Positions 10,802 through 55,582 of a stretch of 64,000 nt of DNA are shown piece after piece. Both the position numbers and the translations under genes were made by a program. The stretch is from Phapecoctavirus DIJ07P1, in sequence record OZ035743.1; one strand, given 5' to 3'. Under the pieces are notes generated by a model. It did not search any database. It saw nothing but the letters and a program-made list of their open reading frames with translations, and was not told where the DNA came from. Each line of letters begins with the position of its first letter. Position 1 is the first letter of the stretch.

Positions 10802-12175
10802 ATGGCAACTTTTCGTGAAAAGGTAGCAACCGTAACTTTACTGTATGGTGCTACATCAATTCGTGAAACCCAGTTCGATATTCCCCTGATCCTTACAGGT
10901 CAGAACGTAACTGGCGAAGCGATTCAATATTACTCTTCTTCCGATGCACTTTTGGAAGCAGGTTATGGATTAAATGATCCAGCGTATATTATGGCAGTCA
11001 AACTGTTTAACGGTTTGTTCCCACCAGATCAAGTCATGGTTGGTAAGCGTGAAGTTACAAACTTTACTCTAACTCCAATCGTAGAAGATAGTGCAACTTA
11101 CACAATTACCATCAAAAATGGTACCAAGAAAAAAGAATTTAAATTCATTGCTGATGACACTGCAACTGCACAAGAGATTGTAGTTGGTCTGACTGAAATG
11201 ATCAATGCAGATCTTGTTTATGGCCCACTGTTTACAGTAGCTAACAACGGTGCTGCAATGACTTTCACTCCAGTAGAAGGTAAGTTTGGTTCTATTGACA
11301 GCACAGGTTTCACTCAAGAAACTGTCTATGCTAATGCTATTACGGAAGATATTGCTGCTCTGCATGATATTGATAGTAGCTGGTTCTGGACCCTTTCAGA
11401 TTCCCATGAAACAGAAGATGTTCTAGCTTTGGCTGCATGGGTAGAAGAGAATGATAAAGTTTACTTCTTCTCTAGCTCTGAACCTGGAATTAAAACGAAA
11501 GCAGAAGATAACGTTCTGGAACGACTCAATGACCTCGGTTATAATAACACTTGCTTTGCTTTGTGGATGACCGATGCAGATTCTGTATTCCCAGAAGCGG
11601 CAGTTGTTGGTGCAATCTGTTCTCGTCAACCTGGTTTAACTACTCTTCACGGTAAAACACTGGTAGGTGTAGAGATCGAGAAACTGGATCAGACTTCGGA
11701 AAACAATATTGTTCAACAGAACGGTAACATCTATCGTAAAGAGCATGGAACTCTGTTCTATCGTGATGGATTGATGGTTAGCGGTTTCTTTGTTGACTAT
11801 GTTGTTCATGCTTTGTGGTTTAAAGCTCGCACAGAAGAATCACTGTTTACACTGTTTAAACAACAGTCTATGCTGGGTGGTGGTGTTCGTGCTACTTCAA
11901 ACGGTCTGGCTTTGATTCGACAAGCTGTTCTGGCTAACCCGATCCAAGTAGGTATCCTCAACGGTTCCATCGCTAATGAAGTTGTTACTTCTGAAGAGAC
12001 TGGTTTGCGTGTCGATCTGAAACCTATTGTTTATATTCCTTCTCGTGCCGATATGACCGATGCGCAAATCAATGCTCGTCTGGTTGATGGGATGAAGATT
12101 GAATATGTTTACGCTGGCTTCTTCCATTACGTTAAAGTTCAGGTCAACGTCCTGACTAACCGTACTGCAAACTAA
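10802..12175 (+). CDS. tail sheath protein
   Basis: 457 aa, followed by 159-aa tube, frameshifted chaperone and tape measure (P2-type order). Confidence 0.55.
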   Translation: MATFREKVATVTLLYGATSIRETQFDIPLILTGQNVTGEAIQYYSSSDALLEAGYGLNDPAYIMAVKLFNGLFPPDQVMVGKREVTNFTLTPIVEDSATYTITIKNGTKKKEFKFIADDTATAQEIVVGLTEMINADLVYGPLFTVANNGAAMTFTPVEGKFGSIDSTGFTQETVYANAITEDIAALHDIDSSWFWTLSDSHETEDVLALAAWVEENDKVYFFSSSEPGIKTKAEDNVLERLNDLGYNNTCFALWMTDADSVFPEAAVVGAICSRQPGLTTLHGKTLVGVEIEKLDQTSENNIVQQNGNIYRKEHGTLFYRDGLMVSGFFVDYVVHALWFKARTEESLFTLFKQQSMLGGGVRATSNGLALIRQAVLANPIQVGILNGSIANEVVTSEETGLRVDLKPIVYIPSRADMTDAQINARLVDGMKIEYVYAGFFHYVKVQVNVLTNRTAN

Positions 12176-12177
12176 TA

Positions 12178-12203
12178 CGGCGGGGGTTAAGCCCCCGTTA
12201 TCA
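12178..12203 (+). terminator. hairpin after sheath gene
   Basis: CGGGGG-TTAAG-CCCCCG at 12181-12197; weak T-tract. Confidence 0.4.
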
Positions 12204-12221
12204 AAATAAAGAGGATCTATA

Positions 12222-12701
12222 ATGGATAAAATGCTTACTGGCGTAATGGCCTACGACCCATCTCAAGTTATCCTTTCATTAGGTGGTTGGGAACCGTGGG
12301 GTTTTGCGGCTGATACTAAAATCGTTATTGCTAAATCTAACGATATTATCAACCCTTATTCAGGGACTGATGGGGACGTTTCATTAGCTTTGAGTCGTAA
12401 CCGTTTGGGAACACTCACAATGTCTTTGCAACGCACATCTCCAGCTAACGAAGTACTTGCAACATATGCACAAACAATGTATTCTACTCGTCAAGTAGCA
12501 TTCAGTGTTTACTTGGAAGACCCACGTGGCTATTACATTAGCACGATTGGATGGATTCAAAGTCAGCCTGAAGATACTATTGGCGAAATGATTACAGAGA
12601 ACCAATGGGTTATTGGTCTTAAAGATGCAAGCCTTCTGCGTAATGAAGTTGGTGTAGGTTTGAGCACCCTTAACTCAATCTCTGCTCTGACAATTCAATA
12701 A
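12222..12701 (+). CDS. tail tube protein
   Basis: 159 aa directly after sheath; terminator follows. Confidence 0.55.
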   Translation: MDKMLTGVMAYDPSQVILSLGGWEPWGFAADTKIVIAKSNDIINPYSGTDGDVSLALSRNRLGTLTMSLQRTSPANEVLATYAQTMYSTRQVAFSVYLEDPRGYYISTIGWIQSQPEDTIGEMITENQWVIGLKDASLLRNEVGVGLSTLNSISALTIQ

Positions 12702-12707
12702 TAAATA

Positions 12708-12735
12708 AAGGGCAGAAATGCCCTTTTTATCATTA
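12708..12735 (+). terminator. intrinsic terminator after tube gene
   Basis: AAGGGCA-GAAA-TGCCCTT followed by TTTTTATC. Confidence 0.6.
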
Positions 12736-12746
12736 GAGAGGAAAAT

Positions 12747-13229
12747 ATGTCACAAGAACAAGATAACACAATTCAAAAATATGCTCGACCAGAAGAAGTA
12801 GTTGAGATTCCGTTAGATGGAAACAGATCTGTTACTTTCCGTATTATGAAGTGGAGTCCATCTAAAGTGTTTGACAGGATTCCAGAATTGGGTAGTGTTC
12901 TGGTTGTTCCTATGACTATGTATAGCACAGCAACAATGTCCGCAGACGAAGACCTTGAGTCACGTATTGCTATGGCACTGATCCAACTTTTTGCTGGTTT
13001 AGAAGAAAAGAATTTAACTGTCTTTTTGCGTAAAATTTTAGATGAGGTTTATACTCAAGACGGTTATAACGTTGCAGAAAATTTTGATGAATTATTTATG
13101 GCTCACCCAGAACTAGTGTTAGATCTTACTGCTAAAGTTCTGGAGGTAAACTACGGCCCTTTTTTCAAACGAGGTTTCGGAAAACTGTTCACACAGCTTC
13201 AGGCGATGACGAGTTTAGCAGCAAATTAA
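12747..13229 (+). CDS. tail assembly chaperone (frame-0 product, gpE/gpG-like)
   Basis: between tube and tape measure; contains slippery heptamer near its 3' end. Confidence 0.55.
   Translation: MSQEQDNTIQKYARPEEVVEIPLDGNRSVTFRIMKWSPSKVFDRIPELGSVLVVPMTMYSTATMSADEDLESRIAMALIQLFAGLEEKNLTVFLRKILDEVYTQDGYNVAENFDELFMAHPELVLDLTAKVLEVNYGPFFKRGFGKLFTQLQAMTSLAAN
13160..13166 (+). other. -1 programmed frameshift slippery site T_TTT_TTC
   Basis: in-frame codons TTT TTC at 13161-13166; the -1 frame is open from 13166 through 13495. Confidence 0.6.
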
Positions 13230-13495
13230 CACCTGCGATTGAACATGCTATCGACACAGCAACGAAAACCCTTACTTTGAAGTGGTATGAGGTTATTCTT
13301 TGCAAAGTCGTTAAAGATACCTCGGAAACACTGAAAACATTGGATAGCTACGGTGTAGATTATCTTTTAAAACTATATGAGTATTTAACATACGAAGAGT
13401 ATGTTGAAGCCATGTATGTTAAAGACACTTCAATAAAGAGAAAACATCAAAACCAGACAAATAAAATGTCAGATTTGTTTAAGAAACTTGTTTAA
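13166..13495 (+). CDS. -1 frame extension of tail assembly chaperone (fusion product C-terminal part)
   Basis: frame 2 reads QTRFRKTVHTASGDDEFSSKLTPAIEHAIDTATKTLTLKWYEV... without stops; track ORF 13277-13495 is in this frame. Confidence 0.55.
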   Translation, partial: QTRFRKTVHTASGDDEFSSKLTPAIEHAIDTATKTLTLKWYEVILCKVVKDTSETLKTLDSYGVDYLLKLYEYLTYEEYVEAMYVKDTSIKRKHQNQTNKMSDLFKKLV

Positions 13496-13515
13496 TCCAA
13501 CACGAGGAACATACT

Positions 13516-15504
13516 TTGTTAGAAATTAACGCCTCCAAAATTAGTAACGTGGTTACGTTTAAGGTGGACAAGAACAGTCTCAAGGAAGCAAAAGATGCCG
13601 TGTTGAGTGTTCAGAAGTTTGCAAATAAAATGCAACCCACTATGAACATGACCAAGTTTAGACAACAAATGAAAGAGATTGAGCGTGAACTTAAGAAAGC
13701 TCAAACTCAAAGTCAAAAACCTATGCGAGCACCTACTCCCGCTGGAGCGGGTGCTCCTGTAGGCGGATCTGGCAGACCTAGAACTCCTAAAACCCCGCAA
13801 GGAAGAGAAGAAGAAAAAGCTCGTAAAGCTGCTGAACGCGAAGCTAAAGCAGCAGCACGTAGGGAAGACTTAGGTAATCTTCGTTTGCAGAACTTTAACT
13901 ATCGAGCAAGAGCATTTAGTAAAGCCAGTCCTGGCGCTATGCAAGAAGCTAGAGACGTTATGGGTAAAGCTGTAGAGCAATACAAAAAGGGTGAAATAAC
14001 TCTTCAACGTATGAACCAAGCTCTTGCTCACCAGTTGGATGCTTTACGCAGATCTCATCGTGAAAAGAATGCTGAAATAGAAGACGAGGTTCGCGGTCGT
14101 CGCCGTATTCGTAGAGAGTTAGAAGCAGAAGCTAAAATGCGTATACGTATGCGAAATCGTGAACTTAGGGATATAGAACGCAATCGTAAACGTGAATTAG
14201 CTCAACAAAGACGTGACCGTGATCGTCGATATGGACAATTAAAAGAAGGTGCAGCAGGTCTTAATCCACGCATGATTGCATCCTCTTTGATTGGTGCTGG
14301 GCTGTTTGCGGGTGGTTCTGTAGTTGGTAATACGTTGATGAATACTAACGAAAGAATTAAACTTGTAAGCCGTGGTGCTGAAAACGTTCAGACAAACGCC
14401 AACGCTATTTTGGCAATGACAGCTTGGGGTGAACAGAACGGTGTAGACTCTGCAAATATTATTAAGTCAATAGATAATATTAAAGACGTTCGTGAACGTC
14501 TTGGTAATACAGTTTTAGCCTCAAAATGGAATGAGAAAGAAGGGAAGTGGAAAGGCGGCGATAATGGCATAAATGACATTATGAACTTGTTTGGATGGAA
14601 TCCAGAACAGCTTAAACCTTTACAGAACGATCCTTTAGCTTTTATTCAGGCTACTGTTAATGAAGGTGAGCGTCGAGGTATGAACTCTGCTCAAATCGGG
14701 CGACTTCTTGAAAACCTTGGTGATGACCTTATGCACTACCAACGTATGTTTAGTAAAAACGGCGAAGGGTATAATGAAGTATTGAAAATGCTTCAAAGAA
14801 CAGGTGCAACATTAACTCAAGAACAAATAGATGCTTCTAAAGAGTTTACTCGTTTTGCTGCAACAGTTCAGCTTGTAGATCAAGGTATGCAGAACCATTT
14901 CTTAGAGGGTTTTGTGAAAGCCTTACCTAAAGATGATTCTTGGTTGGATAACGTTAAAGTGCTAGATCAGTTTGCCAAAGATTTAGGTGAAGAACTTGGT
15001 AAGACAACAGTGCAATTCGGAGGTTTTGCTAAAGAATTGGGAGATGGTTTCGGATCTTTTACCAATTGGCTTAAAGAAACATTCCCAGATACATTCGGAG
15101 ACAACACAGATCCTAATAAATCTATGGCACAAAAAGCATACGAGGCAACGCAAAGTGGAGACAGCAATCCTGTAGCAGATTGGTTGTACAATTTAACAGG
15201 TATTGATACACAAGATATTGGTCGTATGTGGAGAGGAGAACAAACAAGGACACGTGCTTTTGGATTTGGTAATCCTCTTGAAGATTTACGTGAATCAGCC
15301 TATACACCTAACGTAAGTTTGGCTCGTAATCAACCTGTTGTTGAGAATACGGTAGCAATACCAAGTGATCTTATCAAAGTTACGATCAGCCCTTCTTCAG
15401 AGTTTGGAAATATTCTTGATGCAAGAATTCAAAATAGCGGAAATAGCATTTTCCAACGTTTGTCTCTTTCAACTCTAAGTGGACAATCTAACACTGGTGG
15501 TTAA
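13516..15504 (+). CDS. tail tape measure protein
   Basis: 662 aa, long helical R/E/A-rich region; canonical position after chaperone pair; TTG start after GAGGA. Confidence 0.65.
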   Translation: MLEINASKISNVVTFKVDKNSLKEAKDAVLSVQKFANKMQPTMNMTKFRQQMKEIERELKKAQTQSQKPMRAPTPAGAGAPVGGSGRPRTPKTPQGREEEKARKAAEREAKAAARREDLGNLRLQNFNYRARAFSKASPGAMQEARDVMGKAVEQYKKGEITLQRMNQALAHQLDALRRSHREKNAEIEDEVRGRRRIRRELEAEAKMRIRMRNRELRDIERNRKRELAQQRRDRDRRYGQLKEGAAGLNPRMIASSLIGAGLFAGGSVVGNTLMNTNERIKLVSRGAENVQTNANAILAMTAWGEQNGVDSANIIKSIDNIKDVRERLGNTVLASKWNEKEGKWKGGDNGINDIMNLFGWNPEQLKPLQNDPLAFIQATVNEGERRGMNSAQIGRLLENLGDDLMHYQRMFSKNGEGYNEVLKMLQRTGATLTQEQIDASKEFTRFAATVQLVDQGMQNHFLEGFVKALPKDDSWLDNVKVLDQFAKDLGEELGKTTVQFGGFAKELGDGFGSFTNWLKETFPDTFGDNTDPNKSMAQKAYEATQSGDSNPVADWLYNLTGIDTQDIGRMWRGEQTRTRAFGFGNPLEDLRESAYTPNVSLARNQPVVENTVAIPSDLIKVTISPSSEFGNILDARIQNSGNSIFQRLSLSTLSGQSNTGG

Positions 15505-55231: not shown

Positions 55232-55582
55232 TCATTTTAAAAATACCTCATCATCAGTTTCATTATCCCAGAAGAACAAGTCCCAACCATTCGGATCATT
55301 CCATTTAGCTGCTGGAGAAGTCCATATTTGCTCGATATCAATATTCAAAACTTCACCGTTTCGTTTTGAAACAGCTTTAGTTAATTCCCAACGGGATACA
55401 GGCTCCACTTCCCCTGAACCACTCCCACAACAAGCTACCACATTAGGAGGCAAATTAATTGGATCTTTGGTCACGATCATAACGCTTACCCCAGGGTAAA
55501 CTTTTGAAAGATAATCTAAAACGTAATCCACATCACCAGATAAATCCCAAACAAGTTCTTGAATTTCATCAAAATTATTCAT
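55232..55582 (-). CDS. hypothetical protein
   Basis: ORF track, RBS AGGAGAG. Confidence 0.3.
   Translation of the reverse strand: MNNFDEIQELVWDLSGDVDYVLDYLSKVYPGVSVMIVTKDPINLPPNVVACCGSGSGEVEPVSRWELTKAVSKRNGEVLNIDIEQIWTSPAAKWNDPNGWDLFFWDNETDDEVFLK

What the first reader, a model, noticed from the sequence alone, without database searches (positions are those of the whole stretch)
12747..13495. -1 programmed ribosomal frameshift in the tail assembly chaperone
A slippery heptamer T_TTT_TTC lies near the 3' end of the gene between tube and tape measure, and the -1 frame stays open for about 110 further codons into the downstream ORF. This is the conserved gpG/gpGT (P2 E/E') arrangement and predicts a roughly 250-aa fusion protein.
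Basis: partly seen in the sequence, partly recalled or inferred. Interest (0 to 1): 0.45.

Follow-up and report, generated by a model that had tools for sequence, protein, structure and literature searches.

The report
Frameshifted tail assembly chaperone (G/GT type)
The phage gene between the tail tube and tape measure genes almost certainly makes a second, longer protein when a few ribosomes slip back one base at TTTTTTC; this is a textbook phage trick, but database records for this phage group do not annotate it.

Summary
The window is a Phapecoctavirus (phAPEC8/ESCO5-like E. coli myophage). The gene at 12747-13229 is a tail assembly chaperone (Pfam PF21822), flanked by sheath and tube genes upstream and the tape measure gene downstream. 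T_TTT_TTC lies in the zero frame at 13160-13166. From there the -1 frame runs 109 sense codons to a stop at 13493-13495, giving a 249-aa fusion.

The comparative evidence is strong. In 42 distinct homologous genes (24-100% amino-acid identity) the heptamer is invariant at nucleotide level. The -1 frame stays open for 102-127 codons and encodes a conserved domain. In 21 of 41 relatives that domain has no possible start codon before its conserved core. More distant relatives carry other canonical heptamers (C_CCT_TTT, G_GGA_AAG) at the same place. The homologous gene of phage Moogle has the same heptamer and is already annotated with a frameshift.

I found no conserved downstream RNA structure. 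A Shine-Dalgarno-like GGAGGT 12 nt upstream is a plausible stimulator.

Verdict: a real -1 programmed frameshift of the lambda G/GT kind. It is a new, so far unannotated member of a known kind. No fusion protein has been observed experimentally, and interest is low to moderate.

The parts
12222..12701 (+). Tail tube gene (upstream neighbour)
   Evidence: PHROG 280 at 3e-35. Weak Pfam KPP10_Orf10 hit (24.4 bits, just under the 25-bit cutoff). Annotated 'putative tail tube' in the REC and SKA64 records.
12707..12726 (+). Terminator-like GC hairpin followed by a T-run, between the tube and chaperone genes
   Evidence: Consensus scan. Relatives ASO2A and Schickermooser have features annotated as 'terminator' within the matched 1.4-kb stretch; I did not check their exact position. 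Any role in lowering chaperone expression relative to tube is inferred.
12747..13229 (+). Short chaperone form (G / TAC-N), 160 aa, from standard zero-frame translation
   Evidence: Pfam PF21822 Phage_TAC_15 at 1.3e-23 (84 bits, cutoff 22). PHROG 3840 at 2.8e-55. RefSeq relatives annotate it as 'tail assembly chaperone'.
13142..13147 (+). Internal Shine-Dalgarno-like GGAGGT, 12 nt 5' of the heptamer; candidate 5' stimulator
   Evidence: Anti-SD duplex of -10.6 kcal/mol. An element of -5.9 kcal/mol or better is present in 30 of 42 distinct relatives. GAG is used at this Glu codon in 30/35 sequences, against 27% elsewhere in the same genes. The spacing lies within the 9-14 nt reported to stimulate -1 shifts (PMC5009743). 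Function is inferred.
13160..13166 (+). Slippery heptamer T_TTT_TTC (zero frame CCT TTT TTC). The overlapping C_CCT_TTT at 13157-13163 gives the same product.
   Evidence: The heptamer is invariant in 42/42 distinct homologues and in 39/39 IMG/VR loci, with no synonymous variation at its 3 codons.
13166..13495 (+). -1 frame extension (T / TAC-C part): 109 codons plus a TAA stop. It is translated only as the C-terminal part of the 249-aa fusion, join(12747..13166,13166..13495).
   Evidence: The encoded RFR motif, Gly/Ser-rich linker and W-containing helical domain are conserved. PHROGs 16039 and 10409 ('unknown function') match it.
13277..13495 (+). The 72-aa 'hypothetical protein' that some records annotate from a TTG start; judged an annotation artefact
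   Evidence: Annotated in ZCKP1 and omitted in ESCO5. It has no Shine-Dalgarno sequence (+0.1 kcal/mol) and its start lies inside a conserved region. The annotated start positions are inconsistent across relatives.
13516..15504 (+). Tape measure protein gene (TTG start, GAGGA Shine-Dalgarno at 13505-13509), the presumed client of the chaperone
   Evidence: PHROG 16051 over the full length (1243 bits), and RefSeq annotation.

Best explanation

Most ribosomes translate 12747-13229 and release the 160-aa short chaperone.

A minority shift frame. With tRNA-Phe on UUU in the P site and tRNA-Phe on UUC in the A site, both tRNAs slip back one base on U_UUU_UUC (13160-13166) and re-pair with UUU UUU. 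Translation then continues in the -1 frame to 13495. The result is a 249-aa fusion: 140 residues of the G part, an RFR motif, a short linker, and a roughly 70-residue helical C-terminal domain.

By analogy with lambda, the shared N-terminal part would coat the tape measure protein. The frameshift-only C-terminal domain would recruit tube subunits. The fixed slip frequency would set the ratio of short to long form.

The shift probably depends on the intrinsically shifty heptamer, possibly helped by an SD-like GGAGGT 12 nt upstream, and not on a downstream RNA structure.

Shown here: the sequence anatomy, family membership, conservation, and the lack of an independent start. Inferred: that the fusion is made, its amount, its binding partners, and the role of the SD-like element.
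For: 1. Anatomy. The zero-frame heptamer lies inside the 94-nt overlap of the two frames. The -1 frame is open for 109 codons and stops 20 nt before the tape measure start. The +1 frame is closed.

2. Identity. The gene matches Pfam PF21822 and PHROG 3840 (tail assembly chaperone), and the gene order is sheath, tube, chaperone, tape measure.

3. Conservation of the slip site. I compared 42 distinct G genes, from 14 GenBank loci and 39 IMG/VR loci, with 24-100% amino-acid identity. All have T_TTT_TTC. The preceding codon is TGT, CCT or AGT, so its third base is always T. The synonymous pair-difference is 0 at these three codons, against 0.52 upstream and 0.33 in the dual-coding overlap.

4. The -1 product is a conserved protein, with an invariant RF just after the slip (RFR in nearly all) and an invariant Trp in a helical domain. 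In 21 of 41 relatives there is no ATG, GTG or TTG between the slip site and that Trp. The window's only candidate, TTG at 13277, has no Shine-Dalgarno sequence.

5. Slip-site turnover. Aeromonas phage TS9 keeps T_TTT_TTC. Pseudaeromonas phage KLEP7 has C_CCT_TTT. Rheinheimera phage Barba1A has G_GGA_AAG within about 3 codons of the same position. Each has a 117-142-codon open -1 frame spanning the site and carrying the same domain.

6. The homologous gene of Citrobacter phage Moogle has the same AG T_TTT_TTC at NFGSFF (HMM E 7e-12). [quoted passage not shown]

7. A 2025 paper argues for a conserved -1 PRF with a GTTTTT motif in the sister clades Vandenendeviridae and Andersonviridae (PMC12846349).

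8. U_UU.U_UU.C belongs to the efficient H_HH.U_UU.Y class in E. coli and is active at more than 0.1% without stimulators (PMC4066793).
Against: No fusion protein has been observed. I have no proteomic or reporter data for this phage group.

There is no conserved downstream stem-loop or pseudoknot. The fold z-scores are -0.1 and +0.8, and RNAalifold finds 0 pairs. Efficiency may therefore be low, and it is unknown.

The SD-like element is absent in 12 of 42 relatives.

A second conserved shift-prone tetramer, U_UUC in GGT TTC at 13175-13178, lies three codons downstream. It could contribute, or be the real site, and would give a fusion of the same length.

A run of six T could in principle also support RNA polymerase slippage.

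The single-sequence AlphaFold model was uninformative (pLDDT 40).
Confidence: 0.9

Rival explanations
1. The downstream ORF is a separate small gene, translated independently from the TTG at 13277 (72 aa) as several GenBank and RefSeq records annotate it. On this reading the heptamer is incidental.
For: Gene callers and several records annotate a 72-75-aa 'hypothetical protein' here. PHROG 16039 is built on such truncated ORFs.
Against: There is no Shine-Dalgarno sequence before 13277 (+0.1 kcal/mol). The TTG lies inside a conserved helix, and conserved -1 frame coding (RFR, PAIxxA) extends upstream to the heptamer. In 21 of 41 relatives there is no start codon before the invariant Trp. Annotated starts differ between relatives, and ESCO5 omits the ORF entirely.
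Confidence: 0.03
2. The long form is made by transcriptional slippage. RNA polymerase adds an extra U in the T6 run, and standard translation of that minority mRNA then gives the fusion.
For: The site is a homopolymeric T6 run. A non-frameshift mechanism has been proposed for T4-like chaperone genes (Vladimirov et al. 2022, known to me only by its title as cited in PMC12846349 and PMC10885494; the paper was not readable here).
Against: Six T is shorter than the runs of about 8-9 or more that, to my knowledge, typically give efficient slippage by bacterial RNA polymerase.

The run is never lengthened. The seventh base is C in 42/42 sequences, and the run is always in the X_XXY_YYZ phase.

Relatives replace it with G_GGA_AAG or C_CCT_TTT. 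These are tandem-slippage heptamers, and the former is not a homopolymer run.
Confidence: 0.05
3. The shift occurs at the conserved U_UUC tetramer (GGT TTC, 13175-13178) by single-tRNA slippage rather than at the heptamer. The product would be GPFFKRGF|RKTV..., also 249 aa.
For: GGT is invariant (42/42) and TTC nearly so (37/42). U_UU.Y is the second most shift-prone tetramer class in E. coli (PMC4066793).
Against: Tetramers are about 10-fold weaker than the best heptamers.

This conservation is also explained by dual coding: G-F in frame 0 and R-F-R in frame -1. The conserved -1 frame Arg before the Phe would not be translated under this model.

TS9 lacks the motif but keeps the heptamer.
Confidence: 0.05
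4. The arrangement is a chance coincidence, or a sequencing or assembly indel that splits one ordinary gene.
For: In-frame heptamers are common: 86 in this window.
Against: The same two-frame arrangement appears in 53 independently sequenced loci, with the short form's stop codon conserved. A -1 run of 109 codons is beyond the 99th percentile (50). The heptamer is invariant at synonymous sites.
Confidence: 0.01

Closest known systems
Phage lambda G / GT tail assembly chaperones (Levin 1993; Xu, Hendrix & Duda 2004, 2013, 2014; as summarised in PMC5009743)
   Same: There are two overlapping ORFs between the major tail (tube) gene and the tape measure gene. [quoted passage not shown]
   Different: The heptamer differs: T_TTT_TTC here, G_GGA_AAG in lambda (from my own knowledge; not checked in a source here). 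This phage has a contractile tail, whereas lambda is a siphovirus. I did not compare sequences with lambda G or T directly; the Pfam family here is Phage_TAC_15. The ratio and the binding partners are untested here.
[quoted passage not shown]
   Same: The G domain is homologous (HMM E 7e-12). The same T_TTT_TTC sits at the aligned N(Y/F)G.FF motif, with a -1 extension of about 100 codons ending at the tape measure gene. This is the closest precedent and very probably the same ancestral site.
   Different: It is a different family or subfamily. The C-terminal (-1) domains are not detectably similar by sequence (no HMM hit; BLASTP E 0.68). Moogle's record carries the joined CDS. None of the roughly 20 Stephanstirmvirinae and Vequintavirinae records I inspected, nor about 180 sampled table rows, does.
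Phage P2 E / E+E' (Christie et al. 2002; recalled from memory)
   Same: It is a contractile-tail phage with a -1 shift on a T-rich run, producing an extended chaperone upstream of the tape measure gene T.
   Different: I did not test homology here.
E. coli dnaX and IS-element -1 frameshift signals with a 5' Shine-Dalgarno-like stimulator
   Same: An SD-like sequence lies 9-14 nt upstream of a heptamer (GGAGGT, 12 nt upstream here).
   Different: dnaX also uses a strong 3' stem-loop, and none is detectable here. The SD-like element is present in only 30 of 42 relatives, and its effect is untested.

Membership tests
G/GT-type tail assembly chaperone frameshift (Xu et al. 2004) | Two overlapping ORFs lie directly between the major tail/tube gene and the tape measure gene | tested here: met
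   Tube 12222-12701, G 12747-13229, -1 ORF open to 13495, tape measure from 13516.
G/GT-type tail assembly chaperone frameshift (Xu et al. 2004) | A slippery sequence in the correct phase lies within the overlap of the two frames | tested here: met
   T_TTT_TTC at 13160-13166 lies inside the 13136-13229 overlap. It is invariant in 42/42 relatives.
G/GT-type tail assembly chaperone frameshift (Xu et al. 2004) | The downstream ORF lacks its own start codon and ribosome binding site | tested here: met
   The TTG at 13277 has no Shine-Dalgarno sequence. In 21 of 41 relatives there is no start codon before the conserved core.
G/GT-type tail assembly chaperone frameshift (Xu et al. 2004) | The first ORF belongs to a tail assembly chaperone family | tested here: met
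   Pfam PF21822 at 84 bits (cutoff 22). PHROG 3840 at 2.8e-55.
G/GT-type tail assembly chaperone frameshift (Xu et al. 2004) | The fusion protein is actually produced at a low, fixed ratio and is required for tail assembly | not testable with these tools
   This needs proteomics, a reporter assay or genetics. No fusion-length protein exists among 5.8 billion database clusters, which reflects gene calling rather than biology.
G/GT-type tail assembly chaperone frameshift (Xu et al. 2004) | The chaperones are absent from mature virions | not tested
There is only a hint.
Canonical -1 PRF cassette (heptamer + spacer + 3' stem-loop or pseudoknot) | X_XXY_YYZ heptamer in the zero frame | tested here: met
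Canonical -1 PRF cassette (heptamer + spacer + 3' stem-loop or pseudoknot) | A stable, conserved RNA structure lies 5-9 nt downstream | tested here: not met
   MFE z-scores are -0.12 (94 nt) and +0.82 (171 nt). RNAalifold on 12 relatives predicts 0 pairs. There is no Rfam hit.
5' SD-stimulated -1 frameshift (dnaX / IS type) | An SD-like sequence lies 9-14 nt 5' of the shift site | tested here: met
   GGAGGT at 13142-13147, -10.6 kcal/mol against the anti-SD, 12 nt before the heptamer. The spacing rule is from PMC5009743.
5' SD-stimulated -1 frameshift (dnaX / IS type) | The SD-like element is conserved among relatives beyond what the protein sequence requires | tested here: inconclusive
   It is present in 30 of 42 sequences. 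The GAG codon is used in 30/35 cases against a 27% background (p = 7e-12, not corrected for phylogeny). It is absent in Mydovirus, Certrevirus and others.

The most novel reading that the evidence does not exclude
The most novel reading that the evidence allows concerns how the shift is driven in this large clade of myophages (Stephanstirmvirinae, Vequintavirinae, FelixO1-like and relatives). The chaperone frameshift would run without any 3' RNA structure. Instead it would be tuned by a 5' Shine-Dalgarno-like element, kept in place by the use of rare codons (CTG-GAG-GTN). The slip heptamer itself would be exchangeable over evolution (T_TTT_TTC, C_CCT_TTT, G_GGA_AAG) at a fixed position in the protein. 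Presence or absence of the SD-like element across genera would then set different short-to-long ratios.
Probability: 0.35. Interest if true: 0.3.

Novelty: new member of a known kind. Interest (0 to 1): 0.22.

Why it matters
The main consequence is for annotation. More than a hundred Phapecoctavirus, Justusliebigvirus and Vequintavirinae genome records, RefSeq included, either list the downstream piece as a small 'hypothetical protein' with inconsistent start sites or omit it. The real product is most likely a 249-aa frameshift fusion.

Several of these phages are candidates for phage therapy, so correct gene models matter for proteomics and for engineering. For example, recoding or codon-optimising this gene would destroy the slip site and probably tail assembly with it.

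Biologically it extends a well-known rule. It shows that the same slip site has been kept at nucleotide level across very divergent myophage families.

Tried and rejected
Downstream stimulatory RNA structure. Single-sequence folds were no better than shuffles, and the alignment fold of 12 relatives gave no pairs. An Rfam scan of 12600-13600 gave only sub-threshold sRNA noise.

Structure prediction. AlphaFold2 on the fusion as a single sequence gave pLDDT 40, which is unusable, so I ran no fold search. A PDB sequence search with the fusion gave no hit at E up to 1.

Phage tRNA that might alter decoding. No tRNA gene lies in the window.

Looking for an already annotated fusion.
- The protein database search returned only G-length proteins of 158-175 aa, covering at most 64% of the query.
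- About 20 inspected Stephanstirmvirinae and Vequintavirinae (and related) GenBank/RefSeq records have no joined CDS.

Literature. Searches for a frameshift report in phAPEC8, Phapecoctavirus, Vequintavirus, rV5 or phi92 found nothing specific. The Vladimirov et al. 2022 paper on T4-like chaperones could not be read.

The other long -1 run. The one behind a heptamer in the window (minus strand, 55232-55582) is a plain ATGA start/stop overlap.

The +1 frame. It is closed after 7 codons.

Full report
WHAT THE WINDOW IS. The region 12200-13600 is 99.8% identical to Escherichia phages ESCO5, vB_EcoM_REC and AV126, and 99.5-99.7% identical to dozens of other Phapecoctavirus genomes (Stephanstirmvirinae, about 150-kb myophages). 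The local gene order on the + strand is:
- sheath, 10802-12175 (Pfam DUF3383);
- tube, 12222-12701 (PHROG 280; annotated as tail tube in some records);
- the gene in question, 12747-13229;
- tape measure protein, 13516-15504 (PHROG 16051, full length).
The gene in question matches Pfam PF21822 Phage_TAC_15 (E 1.3e-23; 84 bits against a cutoff of 22) and PHROG 3840 'tail assembly chaperone' (E 2.8e-55).

CHECK OF THE OBSERVATION. The zero frame reads GGC CCT TTT TTC AAA, so T_TTT_TTC at 13160-13166 is in the X_XXY_YYZ phase. The -1 frame is open from 13136. After the slip it reads QTRFRKTV... for 109 sense codons, to a TAA at 13493-13495, 20 nt before the tape measure start. The fusion join(12747..13166,13166..13495) is 249 aa. 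The overlapping C_CCT_TTT (13157-13163) would produce the identical protein. The +1 frame closes after 7 codons.

As a null, 62 proxy genes of the window (19,402 codons) contain 86 in-frame heptamers. The -1 run from an arbitrary codon has a median of 5 codons and a 99th percentile of 50. Only this site combines a heptamer with a long extension beyond the zero-frame stop; the runner-up is an ordinary ATGA gene overlap.

COMPARATIVE EVIDENCE. I collected 14 GenBank loci:
- Stephanstirmvirinae and close relatives: ESCO5, phi92, phiWec181, PsgM04F, KP13-16;
- Vequintavirinae: rV5, K54_rec1, Ro1, SSE121, CB7, A73, ChuuTotoro, pEa_SNUABM_55, Av-05.
I added 39 IMG/VR loci. Together they give 42 distinct G gene sequences, with amino-acid identity to the window's protein as low as 24%.

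All 42 have T_TTT_TTC in phase. The codon before it is TGT (23), CCT (18) or AGT (1): three different amino acids, always ending in T. The two Phe codons are TTT and TTC in 42/42. The synonymous pair-difference is therefore 0 at these three codons, against 0.52 for the rest of the gene upstream. For comparison, the neighbouring invariant Tyr is TAC 29 / TAT 13. Downstream of the site, where both frames would be coding, the synonymous difference falls to 0.33. In every locus the -1 frame stays open for 102-127 codons after the heptamer and ends just before the tape measure gene. One caveat applies: one of the two peptide patterns used to find the IMG/VR loci included the FF residues, but it did not fix their codons.

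THE -1 PRODUCT IS A REAL, CONSERVED POLYPEPTIDE THAT CANNOT START ON ITS OWN. Aligned -1 translations share the following:
- an invariant Arg-Phe two to three residues after the slip, followed in nearly all sequences by a further Arg;
- a Gly/Ser/Asp-rich linker of variable length;
- a conserved helical region, ...A(I/L)xxAxxxxSLxW(Y/F)D(Y/F)L..., with an invariant Trp;
- a basic tail.
In 21 of 41 distinct sequences there is no ATG, GTG or TTG anywhere between the slip site and that Trp. In the window the only candidate is the TTG at 13277, which some records use to annotate a 72-aa hypothetical protein. It has no Shine-Dalgarno complementarity (+0.1 kcal/mol) and sits inside the conserved helix.

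Database annotation of this piece is inconsistent. ESCO5 RefSeq, SKA64, SF1-1 and iGC_PHA_EC001 omit it. ZCKP1 starts it at the TTG. rV5 gp050 starts inside gene 51. Mydovirus records annotate only the last 43 codons.

SLIP-SITE TURNOVER IN MORE DISTANT RELATIVES. Aeromonas phage TS9 keeps AG T_TTT_TTC at HYYKSFF. Pseudaeromonas phage KLEP7 has C_CCT_TTT at NYVVPF. Rheinheimera phage Barba1A has lost the T run but has G_GGA_AAG, a different canonical slippery heptamer, two to three codons further on. In all three the -1 frame spanning the site is open for 117-142 codons and carries the same W/F-containing domain. Replacement of one canonical tandem-slippage heptamer by another at a fixed place argues for ribosomal slippage. 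It argues against both coincidence and polymerase stuttering.

PRECEDENT. An HMM of the 42 G proteins matches the 'tape measure chaperone' of Citrobacter phage Moogle (FelixO1-like) at E 7e-12 and aligns NYGpFF with Moogle's NFGSFF. Moogle's DNA there is AG T_TTT_TTC, and its GenBank record carries a joined CDS. [quoted passage not shown]

A December 2025 paper argues from 56 alleles for a conserved -1 PRF with an invariant GTTTTT in Vandenendeviridae, and finds the same motif in 231 Andersonviridae. It names Vequintavirinae and Stephanstirmvirinae as related clades but does not analyse their chaperone locus (PMC12846349). I found no paper describing the frameshift in phAPEC8-like, phi92-like or rV5-like phages; the rV5 genome and proteome paper does not mention it. 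None of about 20 Stephanstirmvirinae and Vequintavirinae (and related) records inspected, nor about 180 sampled table rows, shows a joined chaperone CDS. A search of 5.8 billion protein clusters with the fusion returned only G-length proteins.

MECHANISM. E. coli work ranks U_UU.Y second among shift-prone A-site tetramers. It places H_HH.U_UU.Y heptamers, which include both U_UU.U_UU.C and C_CC.U_UU.U, in the efficient class, and U_UU.U_UU.C gives more than 0.1% shifting with no stimulator (PMC4066793).

I found no 3' stimulatory structure. The 94 nt after the heptamer fold no better than shuffles (z = -0.12), the wider 171 nt give z = +0.82, RNAalifold on 12 relatives predicts no pairs, and Rfam has nothing.

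There is, however, an SD-like GGAGGT at 13142-13147, with a -10.6 kcal/mol duplex against the anti-SD. It lies 12 nt before the heptamer, inside the 9-14 nt range reported to stimulate -1 shifts, as in dnaX and many IS elements (PMC5009743). A comparable element is present in 30 of 42 relatives and missing in Mydovirus, Certrevirus, KP13-16 and others. The Glu codon within it is GAG in 30/35 sequences, against 27% GAG elsewhere in the same genes. The flanking Leu and Val codons are similarly biased towards CTG and GTG (not corrected for phylogeny). I regard this as a plausible but unproven tuning element.

By analogy with lambda, the shared N-terminal part would bind the tape measure protein and the frameshift-only domain would recruit tube subunits, with the slip rate fixing the ratio of the two forms. 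In lambda that ratio is about 30:1, and neither protein is in the virion (PMC5009743). All of this is inference for the present phage.

CAVEATS AND RIVALS. The nearly invariant GGT TTC three codons downstream (13173-13178) contains a U_UUC tetramer, which could support a weaker single-tRNA slip. The product would have the same length but read KRGF instead of QTRF at the junction. Its conservation is also explained by dual coding. TS9 lacks it while keeping the heptamer, so I consider it secondary.

Transcriptional slippage on six T is unlikely for three reasons: the run is short, it is never extended (the seventh base is always C), and relatives use non-homopolymeric heptamers. Only RNA sequencing could exclude it. 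Independent initiation and chance are effectively excluded by the comparative data.

The single-sequence AlphaFold model of the fusion was unusable (pLDDT 40), so nothing can be said about the fold of the C-terminal domain. It matches only PHROGs of unknown function.

VERDICT. Both the observation and the interpretation are right. This is a -1 programmed ribosomal frameshift of the G/GT kind, at a slip site conserved at nucleotide level across several myophage subfamilies and already annotated in one related genus. It is missing from the records of the window's own phage group. It is a new member of a known kind, useful for annotation and unsurprising to a specialist.

Noticed in passing
window 12707-12726 (+ T-run to about 12733): A GC-rich hairpin followed by TTTTTATC sits immediately after the tube gene stop and 20 nt before the chaperone start. 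It looks like an intrinsic terminator or attenuator that would lower expression of the chaperone and tape measure relative to the tube. Two related records have 'terminator' features within the matched 1.4-kb stretch.
   Followed up: partly
window 13173-13178: GGT TTC three codons after the heptamer is nearly invariant (GGT 42/42, TTC 37/42). It contains a U_UUC shift-prone tetramer. This may simply reflect dual coding (G-F in frame 0, R-F-R in frame -1), or it may be a secondary slip site.
   Followed up: partly
window 13516: The tape measure gene starts with TTG, preceded by a GAGGA Shine-Dalgarno sequence at 13505-13509. All inspected relatives annotate the same start.
   Followed up: no
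GenBank records MG065650, MG065639, MG065656 and others: Records named 'Campylobacter phage B15/A150/C3...' are 99.5% (B15; about 74% for A150/C3, which match the Justusliebigvirus group) identical to E. coli phapecoctaviruses or justusliebigviruses across this region. 'Klebsiella phage ZCKP1' is 99.6% identical. The host labels look doubtful, or the host range is unusually broad.
   Followed up: no
window 55232-55582, minus strand: T_TTA_AAA at the penultimate codon is followed by an 81-codon -1 run. On inspection this is a normal ATGA stop/start overlap with the next gene, not a frameshift candidate.
   Followed up: yes
L061 (Rheinheimera phage Barba1A) 1726-2364: In Barbavirus a reverse-strand 'putative DNA binding protein' gene is inserted between the chaperone -1 ORF and the tape measure gene, breaking the otherwise universal adjacency.
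   Followed up: no
L059 (Pseudaeromonas phage KLEP7) 633-1253: The chaperone is annotated with an N-terminal extension of about 50 residues (206 aa) compared with all relatives. This is either a mis-called start or a real extension. The -1 part is not annotated at all in that record.
   Followed up: no
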